Positions 1 through 13,897 of a DNA stretch of 24,000 nucleotides are shown one piece after another. Source of the stretch: Leptotrichia sp. oral taxon 215 str. W9775 (lineage in GTDB: Bacteria; Fusobacteriota; Fusobacteriia; Fusobacteriales; Leptotrichiaceae). The notes below the pieces were generated by a model, which saw only the letters and a program-made list of their open reading frames with translations, was not told where the DNA came from and searched no databases. The stretch's first letter is position 1. Every line of letters starts with the position of its first letter. The translations under genes were made by a program, and so were the position numbers. Location: assembly GCF_000469505.1 (NCBI RefSeq), contig NZ_KI272830.1, positions 1 to 24,000 on the forward strand. Direction: 5' to 3'.

Positions 1-90
1 TTTTTCCACCCCCATATATATTATAGAGCCTTTTTTTTGAAATAATTTTTTTAGTAATCTGATTTTAAAACAAATGTAAAATTAGAAAAA

Positions 91-1362: not shown

Positions 1363-1395
1363 TATCTCCTTTCCCCAAATTTTTAAATATTTTAT

Positions 1396-1424
1396 ATTTT
1401 AACTTTTTATGGAAAAATTTACAA
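1396..1424 (-). promoter_or_regulatory. Putative sigma70-type promoter of the symporter gene
   Basis: On the minus strand: TTGTAA (1424..1419), 17 nt spacer, TAAAAT (1401..1396). An A10 tract (plus-strand T10 at 1426-1435) lies directly upstream, like an UP element. Confidence 0.4.
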
Positions 1425-1592
1425 CTTTTTTTTTTAAAATAATCAGTTTATCCTTTTAGATTTTTTCAAAAATTAAATCTAAAATTACTTGTCCTAAATT
1501 GATATTATTTTCCTTAATATAATTATTGAGCTTGTGTCTATGTCAGAATTAGTATTGACGGAAACTTTTATGCGTTATTTCTATCCTTCTTT

Positions 1593-2822
1593 CTATTTAT
1601 CCTGAAAATATGTAGCTGCTTTTGGAGTACTTTCTATTTTTTCAATAATATTTTCCGGAAGATATATTTCAATAACAGATTTTTTATCAGAATAATATCT
1701 GACAAAGATTTTTATATATTCATTTGAAAAATTAAAAGAGCCATTATCCTTAAAATAGCTTATGGAATCAATGTCTTTTAATTTGGAAGTACGAAGAAGT
1801 TCTTCAATTTTAGGATAATATCTTTTTATTTCATTTAGTTTTCTGGTGAGGGTATAAAATAGAACTATCGGCGATTTAACTCTCTTAAATTCGTTTACAT
1901 AAAGTTTTAGGTTATCTGATGCTAGATTAAGCATCAATGCCCTCTTTAAATTCTTTTCCAAATCTTCAGAAAAGGAATCTTTTACATAATTTAGATTGTC
2001 GTGTACGTATTTATATCCTCTTTTTGCCACATAAAGTAGAAACAGACGATAAATTTCTTCAGGATTGGAAACTTTATCCTTAACAAGTTCAAGCATTTTA
2101 TAAATTGTATTGTCGTATGGGCTGTAAGGCTGTCTTGCTTTATTTATGAGAAAATTAATAGATACGATTTTATTTGTCAGTTTTCCACTTTCCTTAATTT
2201 TTTCGTATGCAACAGAAAAATCAGTAAAAGTATTTATGTCCATTACAGCTTTTTTTAAAATATGCTTTTCAAAATCAAAAAACCTTTCATATTTATTGTC
2301 AGCATTAAGATAGATTTTTACTGATGAAAGTGGAAGGCAGACTTCGTTTTTATCTTTGGCATTTTTAATAATATTATTGTAAAAGCCAAATGAGAAGGAA
2401 TCTGTCATAAAAATAAATTTTTCAATCTCAAGTAGGGAAAAAAAGCTCTTTTTTAATGAGAAACAATTTTTAAATTCTTCAGTAAAAAATAATTGACAAT
2501 AATCAGTATGTAAAATAAAAGATGAAAGTATTCCAAAAGAACCGGAAAATTTATCGTTTGGAGAAAATACATAAAAAGATATATATTTTTCTGACAGAGT
2601 TTTAAAAAATGAAGTGAAATTATTAATGGAAGAAAATTCAGGTATGGAAAGAATTTCTTCAAATCTGATTTCAGCTTTTTCCAAAAAAGTGGAATCTGAA
2701 ACAATTTTAAAAAATAATAATTTTAAAAATATCTTTTCATCTTTTGTTATTTTTTTAGAAAATTCAAGTTTAATATCCTTTTTCTGTAAATTTGTAAATT
2801 TGTGGGAAAAATATATGTTCAT
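1593..2822 (-). CDS. Replication initiator-like protein (Rep_3/RepB-like winged-helix pattern), otherwise hypothetical
   Basis: 409-aa ORF. The segment FSFGFYNNIIKNA...VCLPLSSVKIYLNADNKYERFFDFEKHILKKAVMDINTFTDFSVAYEKIKESGKLTNKIVSINFLI matches the pattern I recall for the second winged-helix of Rep_3 initiators (Y-x-R-ff-dF-x-vl-x-a-x-eIN-x-tD-x-v-y-x-x-K-x-G-x-kv-x-i-F-i). Repeated palindromes sit just upstream of its start. No HMM was run. Confidence 0.5.
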   Translation of the reverse strand: MNIYFSHKFTNLQKKDIKLEFSKKITKDEKIFLKLLFFKIVSDSTFLEKAEIRFEEILSIPEFSSINNFTSFFKTLSEKYISFYVFSPNDKFSGSFGILSSFILHTDYCQLFFTEEFKNCFSLKKSFFSLLEIEKFIFMTDSFSFGFYNNIIKNAKDKNEVCLPLSSVKIYLNADNKYERFFDFEKHILKKAVMDINTFTDFSVAYEKIKESGKLTNKIVSINFLINKARQPYSPYDNTIYKMLELVKDKVSNPEEIYRLFLLYVAKRGYKYVHDNLNYVKDSFSEDLEKNLKRALMLNLASDNLKLYVNEFKRVKSPIVLFYTLTRKLNEIKRYYPKIEELLRTSKLKDIDSISYFKDNGSFNFSNEYIKIFVRYYSDKKSVIEIYLPENIIEKIESTPKAATYFQDK

Positions 2823-2837
2823 TTATAAACTCCTAAC

Positions 2838-2938
2838 TAACGAAAAAATTTGATATTTATTTCGTTTAAATTTTATAGATAATTTTAATATTTATCAATT
2901 ATATAACGAGTAACGAAAAAAGAAATAAATTTTTCGCT
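2838..2938. promoter_or_regulatory. Two copies of a palindromic AACGAAA...TTTCG motif (operator or origin-like repeats) between the divergent Rep-like gene and the PTS cluster
   Basis: Copy 1 is AACGAAA (2839-2845), 14 nt, TTTCGTT (2860-2866). Copy 2 is CGAAAAA (2914-2920), 9 nt, TTTTTCG (2930-2936). The centres are about 73 bp apart. Extra AACGA half-sites lie at 2905-2909 and 3057-3061. All six CpG dinucleotides in 2823-3063 fall in this motif or its complement. Confidence 0.45.
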
Positions 2939-3030
2939 TTTTTATAATTATACCTAAAATAAACTATAAAATCAATAAAATAGAAATAATTGTTATAAAA
3001 AACTTAAGTAAATAATTAAAAAACATTTTT

Positions 3031-3059
3031 TTGACAAAATGGAAAAGGTGAGGTATAAC
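3031..3059 (+). promoter_or_regulatory. Putative sigma70-type promoter of the PTS/peptidase cluster
   Basis: TTGACA (3031-3036), 17 nt spacer, TATAAC (3054-3059). The -10 element overlaps an AACGA half-site. The predicted TSS near 3066 argues against the GTG start at 3064. Confidence 0.45.
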
Positions 3060-3105
3060 GATAGTGAAAACAATAAAAGATAAAATTTTAAGTTGGAGGA
3101 AAAAA

Positions 3106-4002
3106 ATGGGAAAAAGATTGCTTAGCTGTTTTACTAGTGATTTTAATAAAATGTCCGGTCAGGATTTGAAAAATGCCATTAAGGCAAGTGAAGGTAGAAC
3201 AGTGTTGTCAGAAAATGTTGTAGGAAGAAAAAGTGTTGCAGGGGATGTTACAAATAGTGAGTTAGCAAGGGCTTTCGGAGCAGATCTTATATTACTGAAT
3301 GGATTGGATGTATTTAATCCATATATAGATGCACTTCCTGAATCAGATGAGCCTATAAAACTTGTAAAAAAACTTACAGGAAGACCGGTAGGACTTAATT
3401 TGGAACCGGTAGATCTAAATGCCGATATGATGGAGGAAATAGAAATTATTTCTGAAGGAAGAATTTGTTCAGAAGCTACATTGAAAAAGATAGAAGAAAT
3501 GGGATTTGACTTTGTATGCCTGACAGGGAATCCTGGTACAGGAGTTACAAACCATCAGATTTCTGAAGGTATAAAGCTGGCTAAAAAATATTTTTCCGGA
3601 ATGATAATAGCAGGTAAAATGCACTCATCAGGAGTTGATGAACCGGTTGCAAATTTCGATGTTGTGAAGGACTTTATTGAAAGTGGTGCAGATGTCATCA
3701 TGCTTCCGGCTGTGGGGACAGTACCTGGATTTACTCAGAGTGAAATGGAAAAAGCTGTAAAATATATCAAGGAAAATGGAGCTCTTTCAATGTCTGCAAT
3801 AGGAACAAGCCAGGAAAGTTCTACAAAGGAAACAATAAGACAGATTGCAATAATGAATAAAATCGCAGGAGTGGATATTCAGCATATTGGAGATGCAGGA
3901 TATGCGGGAGTTGCAAACTTCGAAAACATTTTAGAACTTTCTATAGCAATAAGAGGAGTAAGACATACAATAAGAATGATTGCGGCTTCAAATGACAGAT
4001 AA
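3106..4002 (+). CDS. Conserved hypothetical protein, alpha/beta (TIM-barrel-like) pattern; first gene of the PTS cluster
   Basis: The ORF track gives 3064..4002 (GTG). ATG 3106 has GGAGGA at 3095-3100 and lies downstream of the predicted promoter. Alternating beta-strand and helix segments (ADLILLNG, FDFVCLTGNPGTG, MIIAGKMH, ADVIMLPAVGT, SMSAIGT) suggest a barrel. I recognise no catalytic motif. Confidence 0.7.
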   Translation: MGKRLLSCFTSDFNKMSGQDLKNAIKASEGRTVLSENVVGRKSVAGDVTNSELARAFGADLILLNGLDVFNPYIDALPESDEPIKLVKKLTGRPVGLNLEPVDLNADMMEEIEIISEGRICSEATLKKIEEMGFDFVCLTGNPGTGVTNHQISEGIKLAKKYFSGMIIAGKMHSSGVDEPVANFDVVKDFIESGADVIMLPAVGTVPGFTQSEMEKAVKYIKENGALSMSAIGTSQESSTKETIRQIAIMNKIAGVDIQHIGDAGYAGVANFENILELSIAIRGVRHTIRMIAASNDR

Positions 4003-4034
4003 AAATAAAAAATATTATATATAAGGAGGATTTT

Positions 4035-4361
4035 ATGAAAAGAATATACTTATTTTGCAGTGCTGGAATGTCTACAAGCTTAGTTGCCAAAAGAATGCAG
4101 GAAGTGGCAGATAAGCATAGCCTTCCAGTTGAAGTTAAAGCTTTTCCTGATAATAAGATTGATGTTATTGTTGAGGAATTTCATCCTGATGTAATTTTAT
4201 TGGGACCGCAGGTAAAATTTAAGCTTGAACAGACAGCTTCAAAATACGAACCACAAGGTATTCCGGTAGCAGTAATTGACCTTGAAGATTATGGAAGAGT
4301 TGATGGAGAACGTATTTTAAAGAGAGCTATAAAAATATTGAAGGAAAAGGCAGGGAAATAG
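4035..4361 (+). CDS. PTS EIIB component, lactose/cellobiose/chitobiose family
   Basis: 108 aa with an N-terminal IYLFCSAGMSTS motif containing the phospho-accepting Cys. AAGGAGG SD lies upstream. The stop is 1 nt before the EIIC start. Confidence 0.9.
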   Translation: MKRIYLFCSAGMSTSLVAKRMQEVADKHSLPVEVKAFPDNKIDVIVEEFHPDVILLGPQVKFKLEQTASKYEPQGIPVAVIDLEDYGRVDGERILKRAIKILKEKAGK

Positions 4362-4362
4362 C

Positions 4363-5712
4363 ATGTTTGATAAGTTGGAAAAAGTATTAGGCCCTTTGGC
4401 ATCTAAATTGAGCAGTAATAAAGTTTTGGCGGCAATACGTGATGGATTTTTAGTAGGTACACCGTTAATTATAGCGGCTTCAATATTTCTAGTTATTGGA
4501 AATTTTCCTATTGAAGGATATGAAGCATTTGTTGCGAAATTTTTAGGAGAAGGATGGGACGGATATCTTAATGCTGTTATCCGTTCAACATTTGGAGTAA
4601 TAGCCCTTCTTGGTGTTATTGGTATTGGATATTATTATGCGAAGGCAAAGGGAGTGGAAGGGATTTCCGGGGCAGCTGTATCATTAGTAGCATTCCTTAT
4701 TATAAGTCCTCAATCTCATGATTTATTCGTAAATGCAGAAGGAAAAGCATTCAGAGGTTTTGCACTTAGAAACTTAGGTACAGAAGGTTTATTCCTTGCA
4801 ATGATTACAGCATTACTTGCGGTAACAGTATTTGCTGCAGTTAAAAACAGAGGTTGGACAATAAAACTTCCTGAAGGAGTACCACCTGCAGTAATGAATT
4901 CATTTGCGGCATTAATACCAAGTATGTTTGTAATGCTTCTATTTTTTGCATTGAGACTTTTCTTCTATTTCTTTACAAAAGATCAGTATGCACATGACTT
5001 TATTTATAAAGTTCTGCAAGGGCCTCTTGAAGGATTAGGAAAGAATTTCTTCTTTGAACCAATTTATCAGTTCTTATCAACATTGTTCTGGTTCTTTGGT
5101 ATTAACGGTCCTGCTGTTACAAATACAGTTTTCTCTCCATTACACCTGGCTATGACAACAGGAAATCAGGAAGCGTTTGCGGCTCATATGCCATTACCTC
5201 ATATATTTACAGGTTCATTCTCTGATTTCTTCTGTAACTTCGGTGGTGGAGGAAGTACATTATCTTTAGTATTACTGATGATGTTTAAAGGAAAATCTGA
5301 ACGTATGAAAAAATTAGGGAAACTATCAATAGTTCCTGGAATTTTTGGAATAAATGAAATGGTTATTTTCGGACTTCCAGTTGTATTAAATCCGATTATT
5401 GCGATTCCGTTTTTATTAACACCGCTTGTTAATACAATTTTAGGTACACTGGCAACAATGTTACACATTATTCCTCGTACTACAGGAACACTATTACCTT
5501 GGACAACGCCTTTATTCTTTTCAGGATGGCTTTCTACAGGAAGTATAATTGCAGGGCTTTTCCAAATAGTACAGGTAGCGATAGGATGTATGATTTACTA
5601 TCCGTTCTTTAAAATATTGGATAACCAGTATTTACAAGATGAAACAAAACCTGTAGAACAAAGTAAAGAAGATGATTTAGAAGACATTTCACTTGATGAT
5701 ATATCTTTCTAG
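4363..5712 (+). CDS. PTS EIIC permease, lactose/cellobiose/chitobiose family
   Basis: 449-aa polytopic membrane protein with typical EIIC-type segments (FFGINGP, NEMVIFGLPVVLNP). It appears translationally coupled to EIIB and has an acidic C-terminal tail. Confidence 0.9.
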   Translation: MFDKLEKVLGPLASKLSSNKVLAAIRDGFLVGTPLIIAASIFLVIGNFPIEGYEAFVAKFLGEGWDGYLNAVIRSTFGVIALLGVIGIGYYYAKAKGVEGISGAAVSLVAFLIISPQSHDLFVNAEGKAFRGFALRNLGTEGLFLAMITALLAVTVFAAVKNRGWTIKLPEGVPPAVMNSFAALIPSMFVMLLFFALRLFFYFFTKDQYAHDFIYKVLQGPLEGLGKNFFFEPIYQFLSTLFWFFGINGPAVTNTVFSPLHLAMTTGNQEAFAAHMPLPHIFTGSFSDFFCNFGGGGSTLSLVLLMMFKGKSERMKKLGKLSIVPGIFGINEMVIFGLPVVLNPIIAIPFLLTPLVNTILGTLATMLHIIPRTTGTLLPWTTPLFFSGWLSTGSIIAGLFQIVQVAIGCMIYYPFFKILDNQYLQDETKPVEQSKEDDLEDISLDDISF

Positions 5713-5738
5713 AAAATATAAATTTATGTTGAATAAGG

Positions 5739-5786
5739 CTGTTTCAAAATTAATTTATAAATTTTAATTTTGGAGCAGTTTTGTTC
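5739..5786 (+). terminator. Terminator-like or attenuator hairpin after EIIC
   Basis: 13-bp stem CTGTTTCAAAATT (5739-5751) / AATTTTGGAGCAG (5766-5778), including 2 G-U pairs. The loop is 14 nt and the stem is followed by TTTTGTT. Confidence 0.45.
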
Positions 5787-5874
5787 ATTATGGAGACAGT
5801 TTTAATATAAAAGTGACAGGATAGCTAATAATAAAGCTTTTAAGCAAATTTTTTACAGCAAAGGAGATATATAA

Positions 5875-6396
5875 ATGAGAATAGTTTTATTTTTTGACCA
5901 GATTCAATCGGGAACAGGTGGAAAAGAAGGAGCTAATGTGGAACTTGCACTGGAAAAAGGTGGAATGGGTTCATACATGATGTTTTCTGAATATATAAAA
6001 AATATAGGTGGAACTGTACTTGCCACTACATATTGCAGTGACAGTTATTTTAAGGAAAATCAGGAGCTTGTTCTGGAAAAAATGACAGGACTTTTAAATA
6101 AAGTAAAGGCTGATATTCTTTTATGCGGGCCATGCTTTAATTATTACAATTATGCAGAAATGTCCTCCATTTTAGCAGAGCACGTAAAGAAGGAAACAAG
6201 CTGTAAACCGGTAGTTGTATGTTCGGAAGAAAATAAGGAAATAATAGATAAATATAAAAATAATCTGGTAATGATAAAAATGCCGAAAAAAGGTGGGGTA
6301 GGCTTGCGTGAATCATTACAGAATATGGCAGATGTAATAAAATGTCTGTATGAAGGATCAGATTTATCAGAAGTAAGTGATTATATATATAAATAG
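5875..6396 (+). CDS. Stand-alone domain resembling the N-terminal part of glycine/sarcosine/betaine reductase protein B (GrdB-related); function unknown
   Basis: 173 aa. The segments MRIVLFFDQIQSGTGGKEGA, ATTYCSDSYFKEN and ADILLCGPCFNYYNY parallel the GrdB N-terminus as I recall it (VVHYxNQFFAGIGGEEKA, ICGDSYFNEN, DLFIAGPAFNAGRYG). It lacks the Sec-containing C-terminal half. AAAGGAG SD is present. Confidence 0.5.
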   Translation: MRIVLFFDQIQSGTGGKEGANVELALEKGGMGSYMMFSEYIKNIGGTVLATTYCSDSYFKENQELVLEKMTGLLNKVKADILLCGPCFNYYNYAEMSSILAEHVKKETSCKPVVVCSEENKEIIDKYKNNLVMIKMPKKGGVGLRESLQNMADVIKCLYEGSDLSEVSDYIYK

Positions 6397-6403
6397 TTAG
6401 AAA

Positions 6404-6626
6404 AAACTGTCTGAAAATAGAAATAAAAATTATGAAAATTATATTTATTCATTTGTTAAAATTTTTCTTATATAAAACAGTCATTCATTAAAAAAAAGTC
6501 AAAAATCGCCAAATTTAGGCTGTTGACTTTTTCTAAATTCATTTCCTGTTTTATATTGTAAAATTTTAAATAACTCATAAATATAATTTTTCATATTGTG
6601 TTTTAAGTCTTATTTTAAGATAGTTT
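6404..6626. repeat. Nested-hairpin intergenic repeat element, copy A
   Basis: Outer inverted repeat AAACTGTCTGAAAAT (6404-6418) / ATTTTAAGATAGTTT (6612-6626). Inner inverted repeat ATGAAAATTATATTTAT (6432-6448) / ATAAATATAATTTTTCAT (6577-6594). An extra 10-bp hairpin AAAAAGTCAA (6493-6502) / TTGACTTTTT (6523-6532) lies inside. The 31-nt core TCATTTCCTGTTTTATATTGTAAAATTTTAA (6539-6569) is shared with copy B at 29 of 31 positions. Confidence 0.6.
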
Positions 6627-6666
6627 AAACTGTTAATTTATCTATATATCAAGAAATGGAGAAGAT

Positions 6667-7656
6667 ATGAGATTAAAGGAATTATGTCAATTAAGGGGAG
6701 TTTCAGGAGATGAAAAGGAAGTACATGATTTTCTGCATAAAGAATATGAAAAAAGAAATCTTTCAATAATAAAGGATAGACTCGGATCTATTTTTGGCTT
6801 AAAAAAAGGGAACGATTCATCATATAAAATAATGATAAGCTCAAATATTGATGAAAGTGGAGGAATGATTTCAGATATCAGGGAAGACGGACTAATGGAA
6901 TTTCTGACAATAGGGCTTTATGAAAAAAGTCTTTTTGAGCAGAGAATAGTGAAAGTTTTAAATAGAAGACATGAAGAATATACAGGATTTGTAATAAAAA
7001 ATGAAAAAGAGCTGCTGATTGACGTAGGGTATGGAAGTAAAGAAGAAGTTTTAGGGGCAGGAATACAGATTGGAGATATGTTTGTGCTAGATATTCCTAC
7101 TTTATTTCTTCCAAATGAAGAAATACTTTCTAAAAATCTTTCCAACAGGGCAGGACTTGAAGCAGGGCTTACAGTATTAGATAAGATGGAAGAAAATAAG
7201 GAAATGCCTCCATTTGATGTGGTAATAGGAGGGATATCCCATTCGGTAACAGGTCAGCGTGGAGCAATAACAGCAACAACTGCATTAAAACCGGATATAG
7301 CTGTCGTTATTGATACGGCATATGTGAAAGAGCCTAAAGAAAATACAGTATATATTAGAAGTTTTGATAAATCAATGCTTCCAAATCAAATGTTAAAGAA
7401 GGAATTTTATGAAGTGGCACAGAAAAAAGGATATATTCCTGAAGGCCATGTTCAGCTGGAAGCGACAGACGGGTCTTTTATCCATAAATCATTGGCAGGG
7501 ACTCCAACAGTTGTACTTGTACTACCTTTAAAACATAAACAGGCTATGTTAAATTCGTTAAAAATAGAGCATATAAATAATTTGAGTGACATAATTATAG
7601 AATTTATTAAGGGACTGACTGTAGAAAAAATAGAAAAATTCGGATTTAAAGGGTGA
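6667..7656 (+). CDS. M42 (FrvX/TET aminopeptidase)-family paralog with a degenerate metal-binding site; probable non-catalytic subunit
   Basis: 329 aa with an M42-like N-terminus (LKELCQLRGVSGDEKEV). The canonical positions are substituted: SSNIDESG versus THMDEVG, LSNR versus FDNR, SHSVTGQRGA versus QEEVGLRGA. Confidence 0.75.
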   Translation: MRLKELCQLRGVSGDEKEVHDFLHKEYEKRNLSIIKDRLGSIFGLKKGNDSSYKIMISSNIDESGGMISDIREDGLMEFLTIGLYEKSLFEQRIVKVLNRRHEEYTGFVIKNEKELLIDVGYGSKEEVLGAGIQIGDMFVLDIPTLFLPNEEILSKNLSNRAGLEAGLTVLDKMEENKEMPPFDVVIGGISHSVTGQRGAITATTALKPDIAVVIDTAYVKEPKENTVYIRSFDKSMLPNQMLKKEFYEVAQKKGYIPEGHVQLEATDGSFIHKSLAGTPTVVLVLPLKHKQAMLNSLKIEHINNLSDIIIEFIKGLTVEKIEKFGFKG

Positions 7657-7661
7657 GAAAA

Positions 7662-8741
7662 ATGGATTTTGATATTAAATGGGAAGTTCTGAAGGAGCTG
7701 ACAGAAACTTATGCAATTTCAGGCTTTGAAGAGGATATTACCAATATGTTGAAAAAGAATATAAATTTTCCATTTTCTCAGGATGGACTTGGATCCTGCC
7801 TTTTCACAAAGGAAGGAAACGGAATTTCCATAATGATAGCAACTCATATGGATGAAGTAGGATTTGTAGTCAGGGAAATAGATGAACAGGGGTACTTATA
7901 TTTTCAGAATGTAGGAAATATGTGGTCACATGTTCTGCTTAACCAGAAGGTAGCAGTTATAAATGAGGAAAAAAAGATTTATTACGGTGTTATTGGTGGA
8001 CCGGCAGTCCATTCAATAAAGGAAAAGGAAAGAGAAAAGGTATTGCCGATTGATAAACTGTATATTGATATGGGAGTCAGCAGTAAGAAAAGGATAGAAG
8101 AACTGGGAATAAAAGTAGGGGACATGATATGTCCATATGCAGAAATGATGGAACTTAATGAGGAAGGATATCTTGCTGGAAAATCCTTTGACAATCGTGT
8201 AAGCGTTGCAACGGGAATATGGCTTATGAATATGCTGAAAAATGAAAATACAGGGAACAAAGTCACATTGGCAGCAACAGTACAGGAGGAAGTTGGGCTA
8301 AGAGGTGCAAGAACGACAGCACATAAAGTATTTCCTGATTTGGCAATAGCTGTAGATACTACTTTGGCGGGGGATACACCTTTAAATAAAAATAATATAA
8401 AGCTTGGAAAAGGAGTAGCTATTAATGTTATTGATTCAATGACTATAATGAACAGGGGACTTCTCATTTACATGGAAAATTTATGCAGAAAAAACAATAT
8501 CCCTTATCAGCTGAGCTGTTTTACAGACGGTGGAACAGATGCAGGAAATATTCATAAATCTGGAATAGGAATACCTGCAACAACTTTATCCATACCGATG
8601 AGATACATGCATACTCATCTTGGGGTTGTGCATAAGGATGATATTATCTCAGCATTAAAACTGCTAAAACTGATAATAGAAGACCTGACTCCTGAAAAGT
8701 ATGAAAGAATACTAAAGGAAAACTATCATTACAGCGAATAG
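7662..8741 (+). CDS. M42-family metallo-aminopeptidase (FrvX/YpdE/TET-like), canonical active site
   Basis: All motifs are present: ATHMDEVGF, GKSFDNRV, QEEVGLRGA, IAVDTT, RYMHTH. The ORF track start 7653 (GTG) overlaps the upstream stop. ATG 7662 follows GGGTGAG. The end coordinate is secure. Confidence 0.85.
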   Translation: MDFDIKWEVLKELTETYAISGFEEDITNMLKKNINFPFSQDGLGSCLFTKEGNGISIMIATHMDEVGFVVREIDEQGYLYFQNVGNMWSHVLLNQKVAVINEEKKIYYGVIGGPAVHSIKEKEREKVLPIDKLYIDMGVSSKKRIEELGIKVGDMICPYAEMMELNEEGYLAGKSFDNRVSVATGIWLMNMLKNENTGNKVTLAATVQEEVGLRGARTTAHKVFPDLAIAVDTTLAGDTPLNKNNIKLGKGVAINVIDSMTIMNRGLLIYMENLCRKNNIPYQLSCFTDGGTDAGNIHKSGIGIPATTLSIPMRYMHTHLGVVHKDDIISALKLLKLIIEDLTPEKYERILKENYHYSE

Positions 8742-8768
8742 AACAATAAAACTTGAGGAGGTAAGAAA

Positions 8769-9734
8769 ATGTGGGGAATAATTGCAACATGGTGTATGGC
8801 ACATGACGGTGTCAAAGAAGCGGCAGAAATACTGAAAAATGATGGGAATGCAGGAAAAGCAATAGAAACAGCAATAAAAAATGTTGAAGATTTTCCTTTT
8901 TATAAATCTGTAGGCTATGGTGGCCTTCCAAATGAAGAAATGGAAGTGGAACTGGATGCGGCATATATGGATGGAAGCAACTTTGATTTTGGTGCAGTTT
9001 GTGCCATTAAGGATTTTGCCAATCCTATATCTATTGCAAAGGATTTGAGTCATTTAAATGAAAATAGCATGTTAGTAAGTGAAGGAGCAGAAAAATATGC
9101 TCATAAAAGAGGATTTGAAAGAAAAAATATGCTGACAGACAGGGCAAAAATTCATTATAAAAATAGATTGAAGGATATGGCGCATATAGAAGAAATGGCG
9201 ATAAAACCTTATTCAGGACATGATACGGTAGGTATGGTATGTCTTGATACAGATGAAAATATAGTTGCAGGAACTTCTACAAGTGGACTTTTCATGAAAA
9301 AGAAAGGTAGAGTGGGAGATTCCCCTGTAATCGGATCAGGACTTTATGCTGACAGTGAAATCGGTGGAGCAAGTGCAACAGGGCTTGGAGAAGATATAAT
9401 GAAGGGAATAATCTCATATGAAATAGTAAAACTTATGGAAAATGGACTATCTCCTCAGGAAGCATGTGAAAAGGCTGTATTCAGTTTTGAAAAAAAATTA
9501 ATAGGAAAAAGGGGAAGAGCAGGGGATATTTCTGTAATTGCCATGAATAATAAAGGAGAATGGGGAGCAGCTACAAATATTGAGAATTTTTCCTTTGTTG
9601 CCGGAAATGAAACAAATCCTGTAAAAGTATACAGGACAAAAAGAAAAGGCGATAAAATGGTGCATGAAGAAGCAACTAAAGAATGGCTGCAGGAATACAT
9701 AGATGAAAGAACAAAACCTCTTGTAGAAAAGTAA
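8769..9734 (+). CDS. Ntn-hydrolase of the asparaginase-2 family, glycosylasparaginase type (N4-(beta-N-acetylglucosaminyl)-L-asparaginase-like); no signal peptide
   Basis: Autoprocessing motif GHD-TVGMVCLD, substrate-binding GRVGDSPVIGSG, and ATGLGEDIM. The N-terminal pattern ATW...SVGYGGLPNEEMEVELDAAYMDG is typical of glycosylasparaginases rather than the GTVGAVA-type isoaspartyl peptidases. GAGGAGG SD is present. Confidence 0.75.
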   Translation: MWGIIATWCMAHDGVKEAAEILKNDGNAGKAIETAIKNVEDFPFYKSVGYGGLPNEEMEVELDAAYMDGSNFDFGAVCAIKDFANPISIAKDLSHLNENSMLVSEGAEKYAHKRGFERKNMLTDRAKIHYKNRLKDMAHIEEMAIKPYSGHDTVGMVCLDTDENIVAGTSTSGLFMKKKGRVGDSPVIGSGLYADSEIGGASATGLGEDIMKGIISYEIVKLMENGLSPQEACEKAVFSFEKKLIGKRGRAGDISVIAMNNKGEWGAATNIENFSFVAGNETNPVKVYRTKRKGDKMVHEEATKEWLQEYIDERTKPLVEK

Positions 9735-9747
9735 GGAAGGTAAAAAA

Positions 9748-10974
9748 ATGGATGATACTTTAAAAAATAAAGGAAGTATTTGTGAAAAAGAAAGTAAAAT
9801 GAAGAAAAGTAATTCTGAAAATTTCTGTGATGATAAAATAATTATGGAAATAAAGGAAGAGGTAAAGAAAATACAGCCTGAATTAATAGAAACAATACGT
9901 GAATTAGTTTCGATTTACAGTATTCAGATGGAAGCTGAAGAAAATGCCCCATTTGGAAAAGGGCCTGCCGAAGCACTGGATAAAGCTTTGGAAATATCAG
10001 AAAGATTTAGATTTACCACAGTGAATATAGACAATAAAATAGGTTATGCAGAATATGTGTCAGAAGGAATTAAGGATTGTGATGAATATATAGGAGTTTT
10101 CGGTCATGTGGATGTAGTTCCTCTTGGTGAAGGGTGGAAACATTCTCCATTAGGCGGAGAAATAGAAAATAACCGTATATATGGAAGAGGAGTTCTGGAT
10201 AATAAAGGGCCTATTCTTTCAAATCTGTTTGCCCTTCATATTTTGAAGAAATTAGGGATAAAATTTGATGTCCCTGTAAGAGTAGTTTTTGGAACAAATG
10301 AAGAAACGGGCTTCGGATGTGTAAAACATTATCTCACAAAGGAGAAACCTCCTGTTTTTGGATGGACTCCTGACTGTAAGTGGCCAGTTGTGTATGGAGA
10401 AAGAGGAAGGCTCAAAGTAAGAATATATTCAGAAATGAAGGATTTAGACAAATTATATGATTTTGTAAATAACTATATTTTATCAGCTCCCAACAATGGA
10501 GTGAAATTGAAGATAGATTTTAGAGATGATGACTTTGGAGAAATGATATTAAGAGGTTACAGATTTGGAATTTCTGAAAATAGACATTTTTTTGAATTTG
10601 TAATGAGTTATCCTGCAGTATGTAAAAAAGAACAGCTTATGGATTTAATTAGAAGCAGCCTTGCAGAAGGAACAGAATTGGAGGAAATTGCCAACTGGAA
10701 TCCTGTATTATATGATAAAAATTCTGAATATGTGCAGACTTTACAGAAGGTATATAATTATGTTACAGGCTTTGATGCTAAACCTGTAACAACGACAGGA
10801 GGTACTTATGCAAAAATAATTCCTAATATTATTGCTTATGGTCCAAGTTTTCCTGGTCAGAAGGATATAGCACATTTACCTGATGAATGGTTTGATTTGT
10901 CAGATTTACAGAAAATAACGGAAATTTATGCACTTTCATTATATGAAATAAGTAAGTTGAAAAATAGAAAATAA
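9748..10974 (+). CDS. M20-family dipeptidase (PepV/Sapep-like)
   Basis: Motifs GHVDVVPLGEGW, GRGVLDNKGP and TNEETG. AAGGAAGG SD lies before ATG 9748. There is an N-terminal extension of about 30 aa relative to what I expect for the family. Confidence 0.85.
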   Translation: MDDTLKNKGSICEKESKMKKSNSENFCDDKIIMEIKEEVKKIQPELIETIRELVSIYSIQMEAEENAPFGKGPAEALDKALEISERFRFTTVNIDNKIGYAEYVSEGIKDCDEYIGVFGHVDVVPLGEGWKHSPLGGEIENNRIYGRGVLDNKGPILSNLFALHILKKLGIKFDVPVRVVFGTNEETGFGCVKHYLTKEKPPVFGWTPDCKWPVVYGERGRLKVRIYSEMKDLDKLYDFVNNYILSAPNNGVKLKIDFRDDDFGEMILRGYRFGISENRHFFEFVMSYPAVCKKEQLMDLIRSSLAEGTELEEIANWNPVLYDKNSEYVQTLQKVYNYVTGFDAKPVTTTGGTYAKIIPNIIAYGPSFPGQKDIAHLPDEWFDLSDLQKITEIYALSLYEISKLKNRK

Positions 10975-10981
10975 TAAAGTA

Positions 10982-11030
10982 AAAAAACTGCCTTTTATTC
11001 TTAAAAATAAGAGTATCAGACAGTTTTTAT
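10982..11030 (+). terminator. Rho-independent terminator of the PTS/peptidase cluster
   Basis: Outer stem AAAAACTG (10982-10989) / CAGTTTTT (11020-11027), with an inner stem TATTCTT / AAGAGTA, followed by a T-rich tail. Confidence 0.55.
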
Positions 11031-11072
11031 TATTTTCAATTCTCAATTAACCCAATAAATTTAGAAATAATT

Positions 11073-11195
11073 CTAAATATAAATTTTATCCCTTCTATCT
11101 ATTTGAACAATTAAAATGACTAATTCTTCCTTTTTAATTTTTGCAATAATCCTATAGTTTTTAACTCTATATCTCCAAAATCCTTTCAGAGTACA
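11073..11195 (-). pseudogene. 5'-truncated RelE/ParE-family type II toxin remnant
   Basis: The minus-strand frame reads CTLKGFWRYRVKNYRIIAKIKKEELVILIVQIDRRDKIYI*. This matches the C-terminal signature of RelE/ParE toxins (LKG..WRxRVGDYRIIYxIxxxELVILVxxIxxRKDxY). An in-frame TAA lies immediately upstream. There is no start codon, no N-terminal half and no antitoxin gene. Confidence 0.6.
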
Positions 11196-11218
11196 TTAGA
11201 TTATATTTCAGTTTCCTC

Positions 11219-11626
11219 CTATTTTTTTCTATATAGGCAAATACTGTATCCTTTTTCCAATTCCTCAGCATGAATGAAATCCATAAGAGTATTTTCTTCA
11301 GCTGCAGCTACTTCAGGTGTGACTTCAAAAATTGAAATAACATAGTGTTTTCCTGCTTCAACTGGAGGACAAGTAATAGAGATACTTTTTGCTTTTATTC
11401 TTGAATTAAGCACACTATTGGCAGGTAATTCATAGTTGGCAGTAACTACATGTGCATCAGGTGATACTTTTACAACATCTTCTAAGTCATAGCCTTTCAT
11501 ATGCTCAAATTCAGAAAAATTTTGACCATCAATTGTAATTTTTTTACCACAATAAATATGAAAATATGCCTTCGTACTGTCACTCATAAATTCTTTTTTC
11601 TTTTTTCCATTAAATAAACCGAACAT
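11219..11626 (-). CDS. Hypothetical protein (135 aa), no recognised domain
   Basis: Clean ORF with GAAGGAGAAA SD before the ATG. It is transcribed divergently from the 11891 gene. No motif recognised. Confidence 0.6.
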   Translation of the reverse strand: MFGLFNGKKKKEFMSDSTKAYFHIYCGKKITIDGQNFSEFEHMKGYDLEDVVKVSPDAHVVTANYELPANSVLNSRIKAKSISITCPPVEAGKHYVISIFEVTPEVAAAEENTLMDFIHAEELEKGYSICLYRKK

Positions 11627-11738
11627 TTTTTTCTCCTTCTTATTAAATAAAATTAATTTTTACTATAAAAATTATATCATAAGCAAAAAAAAATTTAAAT
11701 ATTTCTTTTTAAAAATATGGAAATTATGTAATAAAAAA

Positions 11739-11767
11739 TTGACTATTCTACTGTTAAGTTATATAAT
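11739..11767 (+). promoter_or_regulatory. Near-consensus sigma70 promoter for the 11891 gene
   Basis: TTGACT (11739-11744), 17 nt spacer, TATAAT (11762-11767). This implies a leader of about 115 nt before ATG 11891. Confidence 0.5.
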
Positions 11768-11890
11768 TGTATTACTGAAGTAAAATATGAAAAAGAAGAG
11801 TTATTTATAAAAATTATTTAGGGAAGTAGTAATATTGATAATATATGTAATTGTTTAAATTAGAATAAATCAAAAATTTATGGAGGAAAA

Positions 11891-12808
11891 ATGAGTGTAA
11901 GCTTTTATGTGCAAAACAAGAAAAAATTTTTAGGTTATGAGCCAGTTTTAAATGTTGAAACTGCATTGAGTTTACTGGATAAGGAGCTTTACAGCTATAA
12001 TACTGGAAATATTGATATTAACGATTTGCTGTTATCTCCAGTTTCTAATTATCAATGTCTATTAATAGGAGATGGTAAAGATAGTTCAAGAGGATTTGAA
12101 TTATTTTATGATAATAAAGATAAGTATTATAGTGTGCGGGTTTTTACTCCGTCATCCAGGGAAGATTGGCTTTTGGCATTGGAATATATAAAAGCATTGG
12201 CTAAGAAATTTGATTCAAAAATTATAAGTGAAACAGGAGAAGAATATACAGCTGAAAATATTGATAAATTTGACTATGAAAGAGATATACTTTATGGAAT
12301 AGAAGTAATTTCATCAAGAGTTAAAGGTGATGAGCCGACTCTTTACAGTATTTTTGGCATAAATAGAGTTGTGTCCTTTAATCAGGAAATGATTGATAAA
12401 ATAGAAAATTCAGATAGCCCTATTGATACTTTTTCTAATATGGTAAAGGAAATACAGTATTTAGATGCCTATTCGGCAAATCAGCGATTTTTCAAAAACA
12501 AGGAAGATGGAAGAATAAGAGGAGCTTATACTCTTACACAAAATATTAGAACAATACTTCCTTACAAGCCTAGTGTTGAATTTGAAAATTCAGATATAGT
12601 TAAAAATGAAGATATTGCCTTCTGGGATATTGGATTAGTAACTATTGACGGAGATGAAAACGATAAAGACAGTTATAATGTTGCGGCATATTTAAATTAT
12701 GATGATTTTATTAAAAATTTGCCAGAAAATAAATACAGATTTATAGATGCTTCGTATATTATGGTTGAACCATTAAACAGGGAAGAACTTTTAGGATTAG
12801 TAAAATAG
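11891..12808 (+). CDS. Hypothetical cytoplasmic protein (305 aa), no recognised catalytic motif
   Basis: ORF with GGAGGA SD. It is acidic and has no TM segment or signal peptide. It possibly belongs to a DUF family seen in Fusobacteria and Firmicutes, but I cannot verify that. Confidence 0.7.
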   Translation: MSVSFYVQNKKKFLGYEPVLNVETALSLLDKELYSYNTGNIDINDLLLSPVSNYQCLLIGDGKDSSRGFELFYDNKDKYYSVRVFTPSSREDWLLALEYIKALAKKFDSKIISETGEEYTAENIDKFDYERDILYGIEVISSRVKGDEPTLYSIFGINRVVSFNQEMIDKIENSDSPIDTFSNMVKEIQYLDAYSANQRFFKNKEDGRIRGAYTLTQNIRTILPYKPSVEFENSDIVKNEDIAFWDIGLVTIDGDENDKDSYNVAAYLNYDDFIKNLPENKYRFIDASYIMVEPLNREELLGLVK

Positions 12809-12826: not shown

Positions 12827-12966
12827 AAAAAAGACTGTTTCAAAAATATAAAAACAACATAAAAAACTATATTTTCATCATTTCCTATTTTACATTGTGA
12901 AATTTTAATTCGAAAATATAGTTTTTTTATCTAATTTTATAGTTTTTTGAGAAAGTCTCTTTTTTT
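12827..12966. repeat. Nested-hairpin intergenic repeat element, copy B (also a bidirectional terminator position between convergent genes)
   Basis: Outer imperfect inverted repeat AAAAAAGACTGTTTCAAAAA (12827-12846) / TTTTTTGAGAAAGTCTCTTTTTTT (12943-12966). Inner perfect 16-bp inverted repeat AAAAAACTATATTTTC (12861-12876) / GAAAATATAGTTTTTT (12912-12927). The core TCATTTCCTATTTTACATTGTGAAATTTTAA (12878-12908) is shared with copy A. Confidence 0.6.
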
Positions 12967-13401: not shown

Positions 13402-13427
13402 TTTTATTCTCCCTTCCTATTTCAATT

Positions 13428-13778: not shown

Positions 13779-13897
13779 ATCGATACCTCCTTATTTGTCT
13801 TATTATAGCATATTTATTTCTGTAATTCTATAATAGCAAATTTTCATTAAAGAAAAATGAGAAAAAAGACTTTTCAAAATAATTTTTAATAAAAAAT

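What the first reader, a model, noticed from the sequence alone, without database searches (positions are those of the whole stretch)
3031..10974. Chitobiose-family PTS EIIBC clustered with four peptidases/amidohydrolases: candidate PTS-dependent glycosyl-asparagine or glycopeptide salvage locus
Seen in the sequence:
- Eight same-strand genes lie behind one consensus-like promoter and end at one strong terminator.
- They encode an unknown TIM-barrel-like protein, EIIB, EIIC (lactose/cellobiose/chitobiose family), a GrdB-N-terminal-like domain, two M42 aminopeptidase paralogs, a glycosylasparaginase-type Ntn hydrolase and an M20 dipeptidase.
- There is no glycoside hydrolase, phospho-beta-glucosidase, EIIA or regulator in the cluster, so it is not a conventional cellobiose/chitobiose operon.

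Established knowledge:
- M42 peptidase genes sit inside E. coli PTS operons of unknown function (frvX, sgcX, ypdE).
- Glycosylasparaginases cleave the GlcNAc-Asn amide bond.

Inference:
- The EIIC imports, and possibly phosphorylates, a GlcNAc-Asn-containing glycopeptide.
- The aminopeptidases and dipeptidase trim the flanking residues.
- The Ntn hydrolase then releases Asp plus GlcNAc(-6-P)-amine.

I do not know of a characterised PTS route for glycosyl-asparagine.
Basis: partly seen in the sequence, partly recalled or inferred. Interest (0 to 1): 0.7.

Follow-up and report, generated by a model that had tools for sequence, protein, structure and literature searches.

The report
PTS locus for glycoprotein-derived GlcNAc-asparagine
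This Leptotrichia gene cluster is a relative of the recently characterised Enterococcus "ega" locus, which imports N-acetylglucosamine-asparagine (the stub left when glycoproteins are degraded) through a sugar phosphotransferase system and splits it inside the cell; here it carries extra peptidase genes and genes of unknown function.

Summary
The functional reading, PTS-dependent GlcNAc-Asn or glycopeptide salvage, is supported. It is not new in kind: E. faecalis has a characterised PTS route for GlcNAc-Asn, the ega locus. That locus holds glycosylasparaginase EgaG, lac/cel EIIB and EIIC, a GrdB-like "oxidoreductase", a dipeptidase and a GntR regulator, with EIIA CelA1 encoded elsewhere.

The window carries the same five-gene core. 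Against an ega-type Enterococcus raffinosus locus the identities are: hydrolase 54.5%, EIIB 51%, EIIC 44%, dipeptidase about 37%.

The GrdB-N-like gene marks a conserved module. In 27 fully flanked non-Leptotrichia loci it sits with EIIA, EIIB, EIIC and the hydrolase in 27, with M20 in 26, CutC in 26, DUF7916 in 22 and the M42 pair in 13. Streptococcus respiraculi has all eight genes plus a regulator and EIIA.

Corrections to the finding:
- One M42 paralog has lost all metal ligands in every locus, so it is a pseudo-peptidase.
- The first gene starts at 3106.
- A strong conserved hairpin follows EIIC.
- A strain-variable 254-nt palindromic insert separates the GrdB-like gene from M42a.

GrdB-N-like and DUF7916 remain without function.

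Verdict: new variant of a known kind, moderate interest.

The parts
3031..3059 (+). Promoter-like site: TTGACA, 17 nt, TATAAC
   Evidence: Read. It is conserved in 13 Leptotrichia loci, with TATAAC or TATAAA as the -10. The scan did not list it because the last base of the -10 is C.
3106..4002 (+). DUF7916 protein, a (beta/alpha)8 TIM barrel of unknown function. Start revised from GTG 3064 to ATG 3106.
   Evidence: PF25509, 438 bits. GGAGG lies at 3096-3100, and relatives have an indel upstream. The AlphaFold2 model has pLDDT 89, and Foldseek finds only generic TIM barrels with TM about 0.5. Present in 22 of 27 non-Leptotrichia GrdB-like loci, but it also occurs alone or with other PTS types elsewhere.
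4035..4361 (+). PTS EIIB, lactose/cellobiose type. Candidate phospho-Cys in MKRIYLFCSAGMSTS.
   Evidence: PF02302, 56.8 bits. 51% identical to the EIIB of the ega-type E. raffinosus locus.
4363..5712 (+). PTS EIIC, lactose/cellobiose/chitobiose family; the presumed GlcNAc-Asn permease
   Evidence: TIGR00410, 387 bits, above its cut-off; below the cut-offs of the cellobiose, lactose and chitobiose equivalogs. Identity is 44-46% to EIIC of the E. raffinosus and L. curvatus glycosylasparaginase loci, 62-68% to EIIC of GrdB-like loci in Bacillota, and 27-40% to EIICs next to DUF7916 in unrelated loci.
5723..5794 (+). Strong stem-loop followed by UUUUG, directly after EIIC. Possibly a partial terminator or an RNA-stabilising or processing element.
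   Evidence: dG -30.1 kcal/mol, z -7.8. The first 83 nt of the spacer are at least 90% conserved in most Leptotrichia loci (85-89% in the most divergent). No Rfam family matches.
5875..6396 (+). GrdB-N-terminal-like protein without selenocysteine (the 'putative oxidoreductase' of ega loci); function unknown
   Evidence: NF041545, 226 bits against 175. Model pLDDT 94.9, a three-layer alpha/beta fold with no specific PDB neighbour. Invariant GPCFNY and MPKKGG motifs. Directly follows EIIC wherever the upstream sequence is held.
6397..6650 (.). 254-nt palindromic MITE-like insertion, present in some strains only; contains a hairpin plus T run at about 6493-6532
   Evidence: Absent in L081, L084, L086 and L090, where the GrdB-like stop is 16 nt from the M42a start. 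It matches itself in reverse complement at 73% identity. Inverted repeat arms at 6435-6465 and 6560-6590. The hairpin has dG -11.9.
6667..7656 (+). M42-fold pseudo-peptidase (M42a): all metal ligands and the catalytic Glu are replaced
   Evidence: PF05343, only 126 bits. Replacements are H->N, D->S, EE->SV and H->Q, and equivalent losses occur in all 7 loci compared. Always paired with M42b.
7653..8741 (+). Active-type M42 (TET-like) aminopeptidase (M42b)
   Evidence: PF05343, 314 bits. Closest solved structure is B. subtilis YsdC, 1vhe, E 1e-74. All ligand motifs are kept: HMDEVG, FDNR, QEEVG, AVDTT, RYMHTH.
8769..9734 (+). Cytoplasmic glycosylasparaginase (EgaG/AsnA2-type Ntn hydrolase); Thr153 is the nucleophile in GHD-T-VGM
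   Evidence: 54.5% identical to the E. raffinosus enzyme and 53.8% to the L. curvatus enzyme. 65-76% identical to proteins that NCBI names N(4)-(beta-N-acetylglucosaminyl)-L-asparaginase. The protein starts at the position of the mature Flavobacterium enzyme, so it has no signal peptide.
9748..10974 (+). Sapep/PepV-type M20 dipeptidase with a shortened lid
   Evidence: TIGR01887, 318 bits against 208. About 37-42% identical to the dipeptidases of the E. raffinosus and L. curvatus loci. Motifs GHVDVV, DNKG and NEETG read from the sequence. Follows the hydrolase in 26 of 27 non-Leptotrichia loci.
10976..11043 (+). Intrinsic terminator: an A tract, a hairpin, then a U tract
   Evidence: dG -17.7 kcal/mol, z -6.2, and no shuffle folds as well. 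Sequence read.

Best explanation
This is a Leptotrichia version of the ega-type locus for using N-acetylglucosamine-L-asparagine, the linkage stub of N-glycoproteins.

Proposed mechanism:
1. EIIB and EIIC (lac/cel family) take up GlcNAc-Asn, and probably short Asn(GlcNAc) peptides. Phosphate comes from an EIIA encoded elsewhere, so the imported compound carries a 6-phosphate on GlcNAc.
2. The active M42 aminopeptidase, probably assembled with its dead paralog into a TET-like particle, removes residues N-terminal to the glycosylated Asn. The M20 dipeptidase removes the residue C-terminal to it.
3. The cytoplasmic glycosylasparaginase then splits (6-P-)GlcNAc-Asn into aspartate and the glycosylamine. 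The glycosylamine decays to GlcNAc(-6-P) and ammonia, and the sugar enters the NagA/NagB route.
4. The GrdB-N-like protein and the DUF7916 TIM barrel are conserved accessory components with no assigned step.

What is shown here: gene content, family membership, an intact catalytic apparatus, homology to ega-type loci and cross-phylum co-conservation.

What is shown by others for relatives: PTS-dependent GlcNAc-Asn use in E. faecalis, and glycosylasparaginase activity of L. casei AsnA2.

What is inferred: the substrate of this particular EIIC, phosphorylation of the substrate, peptide trimming, an M42 hetero-oligomer, and the need for an EIIA supplied in trans.
For: Family assignments for all eight proteins.

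The Ntn hydrolase is of the glycosylasparaginase type:
- E 6e-57 to 1p4k/9gaa, against about 1e-33 for isoaspartyl peptidases.
- It keeps the HDT nucleophile motif, GRVGDSP, ATG and the sugar-stacking Trp.
- It has no signal peptide.

Literature:
- ega is described as EgaG, lac/cel EIIB and EIIC, a GrdB-like oxidoreductase (a pseudogene in OG1RF), a dipeptidase and a GntR regulator (PMC11549559).
- CelA1 is the EIIA of the GlcNAc-L-Asn PTS (PMC11976118).
- In L. casei, pepV and asnA2 are linked and AsnA2 is active on GlcNAc-Asn (PMC6960285).

Homology to annotated ega-type loci:
- The E. raffinosus locus has the ega gene order. Identities to the window are 54.5% (hydrolase), 51% (EIIB), 44% (EIIC) and about 37% (M20).
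- The L. curvatus locus holds glycosylasparaginase, GntR, GrdB-like, EIIC and Sapep.

Co-conservation:
- S. respiraculi has all eight genes plus a PRD regulator and EIIA.
- Erysipelothrix has the core plus aspartate ammonia-lyase and CutC.
- The 80 metagenome loci and their counts are.

Aspartate ammonia-lyase next to the locus in two genera fits aspartate as a product.
Against: - No experiment exists for Leptotrichia, and the primary ega paper could not be read. Its content is taken from two papers that cite it.
An E. raffinosus locus with the same gene order stood in for them.
- No EIIA, regulator, NagA or NagB lies in the window.
- PepV was dispensable for growth on 6'-fucosyl-GlcNAc-Asn in L. 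casei, so the peptidases may not act on the main substrate.
- The second sugar-contact residue of the Flavobacterium enzyme (Phe13, cited from memory) is Met here.
- DUF7916 also occurs away from any such locus.
- Internal hairpins leave the operon structure open.
Confidence: 0.75

Rival explanations
1. The locus handles GlcNAc-Asn only, exactly as in E. faecalis. The M42 pair and the M20 dipeptidase serve general peptide or amino-acid scavenging that is merely co-regulated, not glycopeptide trimming.
For: PepV is not needed for 6'FN-Asn use in L. casei. The M42 pair is optional: it is missing in L002 and L099 and in 14 of 27 non-Leptotrichia loci. Lac/cel EIICs are known for disaccharide-sized substrates (my own knowledge of the ChbC family).
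Against: The M20 dipeptidase follows the hydrolase in 26 of 27 non-Leptotrichia loci and in ega and alf-2. That is hard to explain without a shared substrate. [quoted passage not shown]
Confidence: 0.3
2. The Ntn hydrolase is an isoaspartyl (beta-aspartyl) peptidase or asparaginase. The cluster would then salvage damaged or beta-aspartyl peptides, and the PTS would be an unrelated beta-glucoside system.
For: The only NCBIfam match is weak: beta-aspartyl-peptidase PRK10226, 119 bits against a cut-off of 567. The catalytic residues are shared by both enzyme classes.
Against: The protein is much closer to glycosylasparaginases than to EcAIII or hASRGL1. The sugar-stacking Trp is kept. The hydrolase is tightly linked to EIIB/EIIC in all 27 fully flanked non-Leptotrichia loci. 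Relatives at 54% identity sit in loci with the gene order of the experimentally defined GlcNAc-Asn locus.
Confidence: 0.05
3. It is a conventional cellobiose/chitobiose PTS operon that happens to sit next to peptidase genes.
For: EIIC scores 387 bits on the cellobiose IIC model.
Against: That score is below the equivalog cut-off of 434. There is no GH1, GH4 or other phospho-glycosidase in this or any related locus. The gene set is conserved across phyla.
Confidence: 0.04
4. The substrate is a different N-glycosyl or beta-aspartyl conjugate, for example Glc-Asn from bacterial N-glucosylated adhesins or another hexosaminyl-asparagine, rather than host GlcNAc-Asn.
For: Substrate specificity was not tested. 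The second sugar-contact residue differs from the Flavobacterium enzyme, and the window enzyme has Cys where most relatives have Arg after the Trp. Leptotrichia lives in the mouth among bacteria that make such adhesins (my own knowledge).
Against: The nearest characterised relatives all act on GlcNAc-Asn.
Confidence: 0.08

Closest known systems
Enterococcus faecalis ega (enterococcal glycosylasparaginase) locus, OG1RF_10933-10939 (Combret et al., Res Microbiol 2024;175:104169; described in PMC11549559 and PMC11976118)
   Same: It has a cytoplasmic glycosylasparaginase, lac/cel EIIB and EIIC, a GrdB-related 'oxidoreductase' and an M20 dipeptidase. No EIIA lies in the locus; CelA1 acts in trans. 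The substrate is GlcNAc-L-Asn, taken up by the PTS. The congeneric E. raffinosus locus is 37-55% identical protein by protein.
   Different: The gene order differs: ega runs regulator, dipeptidase, hydrolase, EIIB, EIIC, GrdB-like. The window has no GntR regulator. It adds DUF7916 and an active/dead M42 pair. The host is a Fusobacteriota member, not a Bacillota member. Direct comparison with the E. faecalis sequences was not possible.
Lactobacillus (Lacticaseibacillus) casei alf-2 operon for 6'-fucosyl-GlcNAc-Asn (PMC6960285)
   Same: The intracellular glycosylasparaginase AsnA2 lies next to the M20 peptidase PepV. The authors proposed that PepV trims glycopeptides to GlcNAc-Asn. Aspartate is a product, handled there by AsdA and in relatives of this locus by aspartate ammonia-lyase.
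   Different: Uptake is by an MFS permease (AlfH), not a PTS, so a GlcNAc kinase (SugK) is needed. An alpha-fucosidase is present there. There is no GrdB-like gene, M42 pair or DUF7916.
Extended GrdB-like/glycosylasparaginase PTS loci of Bacillota (e.g. Streptococcus respiraculi L074, Erysipelothrix sp. HDW6C L075); annotated but, as far as I could find, not studied
   Same: They hold the same proteins at 45-76% identity, in the order EIIB, EIIC, GrdB-like, (M42a, M42b), hydrolase, M20.
   Different: They also carry a PRD/Mga-type regulator and EIIA upstream and usually CutC. DUF7916 lies at the end, not at the front. Some add aspartate ammonia-lyase.
Flavobacterium/Elizabethkingia meningoseptica glycosylasparaginase (PDB 1p4k, 9gaa, 2gl9)
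   Same: Same Ntn fold family; catalytic Thr, Arg/Asp/Thr-Gly aspartate pocket and Trp conserved; E 6e-57 over residues 4-280.
   Different: That enzyme is secreted (PMC6960285) and acts outside the cytoplasm. The window protein lacks a signal peptide. It has Met for Phe13 and a C-terminal extension of about 40 residues shared by the PTS-linked enzymes.
E. coli PTS operons that contain M42 genes (frvX, sgcX, ypdE)
   Same: An M42 peptidase is encoded inside a PTS operon of unclear substrate (my own knowledge; PDB entries for TET peptidases still carry the name 'Frv operon protein FrvX').
   Different: Those use other PTS families. They have no glycosylasparaginase, GrdB-like gene or dead M42 partner. 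This comparison was not tested here.

Membership tests
ega-type PTS locus for GlcNAc-Asn | Cytoplasmic glycosylasparaginase (EgaG/AsnA2 type) | tested here: met
   closest to solved glycosylasparaginases, catalytic motifs intact, no signal peptide, 54.5% identical to the enzyme of the E. raffinosus ega-type locus.
ega-type PTS locus for GlcNAc-Asn | Adjacent lactose/cellobiose-family EIIB and EIIC | tested here: met
   PF02302; TIGR00410 above its cut-off; 51% and 44% identity to the E. raffinosus proteins.
ega-type PTS locus for GlcNAc-Asn | GrdB-related protein without selenocysteine ('putative oxidoreductase') | tested here: met
   NF041545, 226 bits against a cut-off of 175. The L. curvatus locus protein hits the same model. 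ega is described as carrying this gene.
ega-type PTS locus for GlcNAc-Asn | Linked Sapep/PepV-type M20 dipeptidase | tested here: met
   TIGR01887, 318 bits against 208. Homologous to the dipeptidases of L160 and L161.
ega-type PTS locus for GlcNAc-Asn | GntR (LSA1692-subfamily) repressor in the locus | tested here: not met
   No regulator gene lies in the cluster or the window. Relatives in Bacillota use a PRD/Mga-type regulator instead.
ega-type PTS locus for GlcNAc-Asn | Lac/cel EIIA supplied from elsewhere in the genome | not testable with these tools
   No EIIA lies in the window or in 20-kb slices of 10 Leptotrichia contigs. The rest of the genome is not available.
ega-type PTS locus for GlcNAc-Asn | PTS-dependent growth on or uptake of GlcNAc-Asn | not testable with these tools
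   This needs an experiment.
Glycosylasparaginase (EC 3.5.1.26, Ntn hydrolase) | Autoproteolytic His-Asp-Thr site with Thr as the nucleophile, plus the aspartate pocket (Arg, Asp, Thr-Gly) | tested here: met
   GHD-T153-VGM, GRVGDSP and SATG align with T152, R180/D183 and T203/G204 of the Flavobacterium enzyme. The residue roles are cited from memory of the structural literature.
Glycosylasparaginase (EC 3.5.1.26, Ntn hydrolase) | Aromatic sugar-contact residues (Trp11, Phe13 in the Flavobacterium enzyme) | tested here: inconclusive
   Trp is conserved (W8). Phe13 is Met in this and all PTS-linked relatives.
Conventional cellobiose/chitobiose PTS operon | Phospho-beta-glycosidase (GH1/GH4 or equivalent) and EIIA in the operon | tested here: not met
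   None of the eight proteins is a glycoside hydrolase or an EIIA. EIIC is below the cellobiose, lactose and chitobiose equivalog cut-offs.
M42 (TET) aminopeptidase | Two-metal site: His, Asp, Glu-Glu, Asp, His | tested here: met
   M42b (7653-8741) keeps all of them. The ligand identities come from general knowledge of M42 structures.
M42 (TET) aminopeptidase | The same two-metal site in the first paralog (6667-7656) | tested here: not met
   Replacements are H->N, D->S, EE->SV and H->Q, and equivalent losses occur in all 7 loci compared. It has the fold but is not an active peptidase.
Glycine/sarcosine/betaine reductase selenoprotein B (GrdB) | Full-length protein of about 430 aa with the selenocysteine-containing C-terminal half | tested here: not met
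   Its 173 aa cover only positions 2-164 of the 347-position Pfam model. It scores below all GrdB/F/H cut-offs.

The most novel reading that the evidence does not exclude
The extended form of the locus (M42 pair, M20, GrdB-N-like, DUF7916, and CutC in relatives) is a PTS route for short N-glycopeptide stubs, not just for the glycoamino acid. A hetero-oligomeric active/dead M42 particle would be specialised for Asn(GlcNAc) peptides. GrdB-N-like, DUF7916 or CutC would supply so far undescribed steps, for example handling 6-phospho-GlcNAc-amine or coupling to the permease. The locus would have spread by horizontal transfer from Bacillota into oral Fusobacteriota.
Probability: 0.25. Interest if true: 0.6.

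Novelty: new variant of a known kind. Interest (0 to 1): 0.38.

Why it matters
GlcNAc-Asn is what remains when endoglycosidases and proteases have stripped host N-glycoproteins. In E. faecalis its use through the ega locus was linked to infection, according to the title of Combret et al..

The same core appears here in Leptotrichia, an oral and mucosal opportunist from a different phylum, and in many Bacillota. This suggests the route is a widespread way of feeding on host glycoproteins.

The comparison also marks four conserved and unstudied partners as the next targets for enzymology:
- a dead M42 paralog always paired with a live one;
- a selenium-free GrdB N-domain protein that always lies next to the permease gene;
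- DUF7916;
- CutC.

CutC has no settled function, and it also lies next to a glycosylasparaginase gene on a Hymenobacter plasmid.

Tried and rejected
- Megablast of window 1-12000 against plasmids found nothing. The upstream Rep3-like gene therefore does not place the window on a known plasmid.
- DUF7916 as a marker for the locus was rejected. Of 73 genome loci found with it, only the three Leptotrichiaceae loci carry the set. Elsewhere it sits alone or with glucose-, mannose- or lac-family PTS genes, GH4, ROK, GntR or BglG-type regulators, or unrelated genes.
- The GrdB-like structure model is confident, but Foldseek against the PDB gave only generic Rossmann- or flavodoxin-like matches with TM of 0.54 or less. 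A profile search of PDB sequences found nothing.
- The DUF7916 model gave only generic TIM barrels. A profile search of PDB sequences gave only insignificant hits, to NanE, DHDPS and hexosaminidase, with E above 0.1.
- The third homologue search, with DUF7916, listed only near-identical proteins.
- Cluster member look-ups gave no organism names for the large GrdB-like clusters.
- The primary ega paper is not held.
- Literature searches for DUF7916, for CutC with glycosylasparaginase, and for M42 with PTS and asparaginase found nothing relevant.
- Rfam and tRNA scans of the window were empty.
- The DAACS (glutamate/aspartate-type) symporter at 91-1362 was considered as part of the system. I dropped it because it lies on the other strand beyond the Rep3-like gene and is not syntenic in relatives.

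Full report
**What is there.** The window is AT-rich (GC 0.23-0.37). It is 97% identical at protein level to an uncultured Leptotrichia genome bin (L001). Between 3031 and 11043 lie eight + strand genes. Pfam and NCBIfam assign them as follows:
- DUF7916 (PF25509, 438 bits)
- PTS EIIB of the lactose/cellobiose type
- EIIC of the same family (TIGR00410, 387 bits against 236, but below the cellobiose, lactose and chitobiose equivalog cut-offs)
- a 173-residue GrdB-related protein without selenocysteine (NF041545, 226 bits against 175)
- two M42-fold proteins
- an Asparaginase_2 Ntn hydrolase
- a Sapep/PepV-type M20 dipeptidase (TIGR01887, 318 bits against 208)

No glycoside hydrolase, EIIA or regulator is present in the cluster or anywhere else in the window.

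**Refinements of the anatomy.**
- The promoter-like site is TTGACA-17-TATAAC at 3031-3059. It is conserved in Leptotrichia strains. Its last -10 base is C, so the consensus scan did not list it.
- The promoter ends 5 nt before the GTG at 3064, and relatives carry a 1-nt indel between 3064 and 3106. The DUF7916 gene therefore starts at ATG 3106, behind GGAGG.
- The hairpin after the last gene is a good intrinsic terminator: -17.7 kcal/mol, z -6.2, followed by a U tract.
- It is not the only strong structure. A -30.1 kcal/mol stem-loop (z -7.8) followed by UUUUG sits directly after EIIC and is conserved among Leptotrichia strains.
- The 270-nt gap between the GrdB-like gene and the first M42 gene is a 254-nt palindromic insertion. 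It has 31-nt inverted arms and its own hairpin plus T run.
- That insertion is absent in L081, L084, L086 and L090, where the two genes are 16 nt apart. The ancestral arrangement is thus a tightly packed operon. Whether the eight genes are still one transcript in this strain is open.

**The hydrolase.**
- Its best solved relatives are the Flavobacterium/Elizabethkingia glycosylasparaginases, at E 6e-57 over residues 4-280. E. coli and human isoaspartyl peptidase/asparaginases score about 1e-33 to 1e-32, and taspase scores 1e-16.
- The autoproteolytic GHD-T153 site is aligned and conserved. So are GRVGDSP, SATG and the Trp that stacks on the sugar. The second aromatic residue (Phe13) is Met. 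The residue roles are from my memory of the structural papers.
- The protein begins where the mature Flavobacterium enzyme begins, so it is cytoplasmic.
- More than 7,000 database proteins match it. The closest are 65-76% identical in Bacillota and Fusobacteriota, and NCBI already names them N(4)-(beta-N-acetylglucosaminyl)-L-asparaginase.

**The peptidases.**
- The second M42 protein keeps every ligand motif of the family and resembles B. subtilis YsdC (1vhe, E 1e-74).
- The first M42 protein has His->Asn, Asp->Ser, Glu-Glu->Ser-Val and His->Gln at these positions. Equivalent losses occur in all six other loci examined, from Streptococcus to distant metagenome contigs.
- The first M42 protein is therefore a conserved pseudo-enzyme that always accompanies the active paralog. 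A mixed TET-like particle is the obvious reading, but it is inference.
- The M20 protein keeps the GHVDVV, DNKG and NEETG motifs (read). Its lid is about 50 residues shorter than in the enterococcal dipeptidase.

**The two proteins of unknown function.**
- The GrdB-like protein gives a confident model (pLDDT 94.9). It is a three-layer alpha/beta fold with no specific neighbour in the PDB. It has invariant GPCFNY and MPKKGG motifs.
- DUF7916 gives a (beta/alpha)8 barrel (pLDDT 89) with many invariant acidic, His and Lys residues, and again only generic neighbours.
- No function can be assigned to either from these data.

**Is the set co-conserved?** I asked this from two sides.
- With DUF7916 as query, 73 genome loci were found, and only the three Leptotrichiaceae loci carry the set. 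One of these (L002) lacks the M42 pair; another (L003) ends before the M42 genes. Elsewhere DUF7916 sits alone or beside varied PTS genes. It is an accessory gene, not a marker.
- The GrdB-like protein is a small family, and its neighbourhood is strikingly constant.
- Streptococcus respiraculi has a PRD/Mga regulator, EIIA, EIIB, EIIC, GrdB-like, M42, M42, hydrolase, M20 and DUF7916.
- Erysipelothrix has the regulator, EIIA, EIIB, EIIC, GrdB-like, hydrolase, M20, aspartate ammonia-lyase and CutC.
- Among 80 metagenome loci, 27 non-Leptotrichia ones have full flanks. Of these, 27 have EIIA, EIIB, EIIC and the hydrolase; 26 have M20, the regulator and CutC; 22 have DUF7916; and 13 have the M42 pair.
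- These loci are not phylogenetically independent. They do span 39-57% identity of the marker protein.
- Ten Leptotrichia loci all lack the regulator, EIIA and CutC and have DUF7916 in front.
- The cluster is richer in G+C than its surroundings. It lies next to a conserved Rep3-like gene. Its proteins are 55-76% identical to Bacillota proteins. All of this fits acquisition by horizontal transfer.

**Comparison with what is known.** That is no longer so.
- Combret et al. (Res Microbiol 2024;175:104169) defined the enterococcal glycosylasparaginase locus, ega. I could not read that paper.
- PMC11549559 describes ega as EgaG, lac/cel EIIB and EIIC, and a gene for a putative oxidoreductase that is a pseudogene in OG1RF. 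It cites the GrdB paper for that gene. A GntR regulator and a dipeptidase lie under a separate promoter.
- PMC11976118 states that CelA1, encoded elsewhere, is the EIIA of the GlcNAc-L-Asn PTS.
- An E. raffinosus megaplasmid carries the same order: GntR of the LSA1692 subfamily, Sapep dipeptidase, glycosylasparaginase, EIIB, EIIC, then an EIIA. Its proteins are 54.5%, 51%, 44% and about 37% identical to the window's hydrolase, EIIB, EIIC and M20.
- A Latilactobacillus curvatus locus has hydrolase, GntR, GrdB-like, EIIC and Sapep.
- In L. casei, asnA2 (a cytoplasmic enzyme active on GlcNAc-Asn) lies next to pepV. The authors noted this link across lactobacilli and proposed that PepV trims glycopeptides, although pepV was dispensable for growth on 6'-fucosyl-GlcNAc-Asn (PMC6960285).

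**Most likely mechanism.**
- EIIB and EIIC, fed by an EIIA encoded elsewhere, take up GlcNAc-Asn and perhaps short Asn(GlcNAc) peptides, with phosphorylation of the sugar. This is inferred from the family and from ega.
- The M42 particle removes N-terminal residues and the M20 dipeptidase removes the C-terminal neighbour. This is inferred. It fits the enzyme's need for free alpha-amino and alpha-carboxyl groups, as stated.
- The hydrolase releases aspartate and the glycosylamine, which decays to GlcNAc(-6-P) and ammonia. The chemistry is that described for AsnA2.
- Aspartate ammonia-lyase next to the locus in two genera fits aspartate as a product.
- I put 0.75 on the locus being an ega-type GlcNAc-Asn system, and about 0.4-0.5 on the glycopeptide extension.
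- The rivals are poorly supported. They are isoaspartyl-peptide salvage, a plain cellobiose or chitobiose operon, and a different N-glycosyl conjugate.

**Verdict.** What is new:
- its presence in Fusobacteriota;
- a gene order without a regulator or EIIA;
- a larger conserved module around the core, consisting of a dead/live M42 pair, DUF7916 and, in relatives, CutC and aspartase. I found no study of this larger module.

I rate it a new variant of a known kind, with interest 0.38.

Noticed in passing
window 6397-6650 (related fragment at 12878-12926; also L080, L082, L083, L087, L088, L096): A 254-nt palindromic, MITE-like element is inserted between the GrdB-like gene and M42a in some Leptotrichia strains and is absent in others. 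A related fragment lies downstream of the DUF4299 gene, within the inverted repeat at 12842-12946. L088 appears to carry a longer or duplicated copy.
   Followed up: partly
window 5723-5794: A very stable conserved stem-loop (-30.1 kcal/mol) lies between EIIC and the GrdB-like gene. Relatives in other phyla also keep an 84-260 nt spacer at this junction. It may set the ratio of transporter to enzymes.
   Followed up: partly
window 1593-2822 (- strand): A 409-aa protein with only a Rep3_C winged-helix match (E 1e-9) is divergently oriented. It sits at the same position in the Leptotrichia loci that extend far enough upstream (54-98% identity). It could be a remnant of a plasmid-borne ancestor of the island, or a domesticated DNA-binding protein acting as its regulator.
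   Followed up: no
L075 12027-12761; L108-L141 and others; plasmid hit H14 (Hymenobacter sp. DG25B, NZ_CP010056.1): CutC-family proteins ('copper homeostasis protein', function unsettled) follow the M20 gene in 26 of 27 non-Leptotrichia loci. One is also annotated next to a glycosylasparaginase on a Bacteroidota plasmid. This suggests a role for CutC in GlcNAc-Asn or glycosylamine metabolism. No paper linking the two was found.
   Followed up: partly
L075 10621-12024; L074 1295-2716 (-): Aspartate ammonia-lyase genes (NF008909, above its cut-off) lie inside or beside the locus in Erysipelothrix and Streptococcus respiraculi. They are a functional counterpart of AsdA in the L. casei alf-2 operon.
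   Followed up: partly
window 8769-9734 and relatives: The PTS-linked cytoplasmic glycosylasparaginases share features absent from the Flavobacterium enzyme: a C-terminal extension of about 40 residues (...EWL..Y...R..PL.EK) and a basic FMKK motif before GRVGDSP. Most have Arg after the conserved Trp, where the window has Cys. These are candidates for accommodating a 6-phosphate.
   Followed up: no
window 91-1362 (- strand): A sodium:dicarboxylate symporter family (DAACS) gene lies near the cluster. In L094 a homologue lies just downstream of the M20 gene instead. This is probably coincidental, but aspartate is a product of the pathway.
   Followed up: no
window 18096-18656 and 21320-21898 (repeats D1/D2: 18312-18605 versus 21566-21859): Two paralogous genes for small membrane proteins without Pfam matches share about 71-77% DNA identity. 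They lie 3.25 kb apart, within a run of uncharacterised + strand genes (DUF2325-like, DUF1963, 2-thiouracil desulfurase family).
   Followed up: no
window 13066-15932 (- strand): Two PepSY-domain secreted proteins lie next to a histidine kinase/response regulator pair. They are unrelated to the finding.
   Followed up: no
NCBIfam accessions NF041545 (GrdB_like_no_Se) and NF041547 (GntR_LSA1692): The curated models for the GrdB-like protein and for the GntR regulator of glycosylasparaginase loci have nearly consecutive accession numbers. This suggests NCBI curators built them from this same conserved neighbourhood.
   Followed up: no
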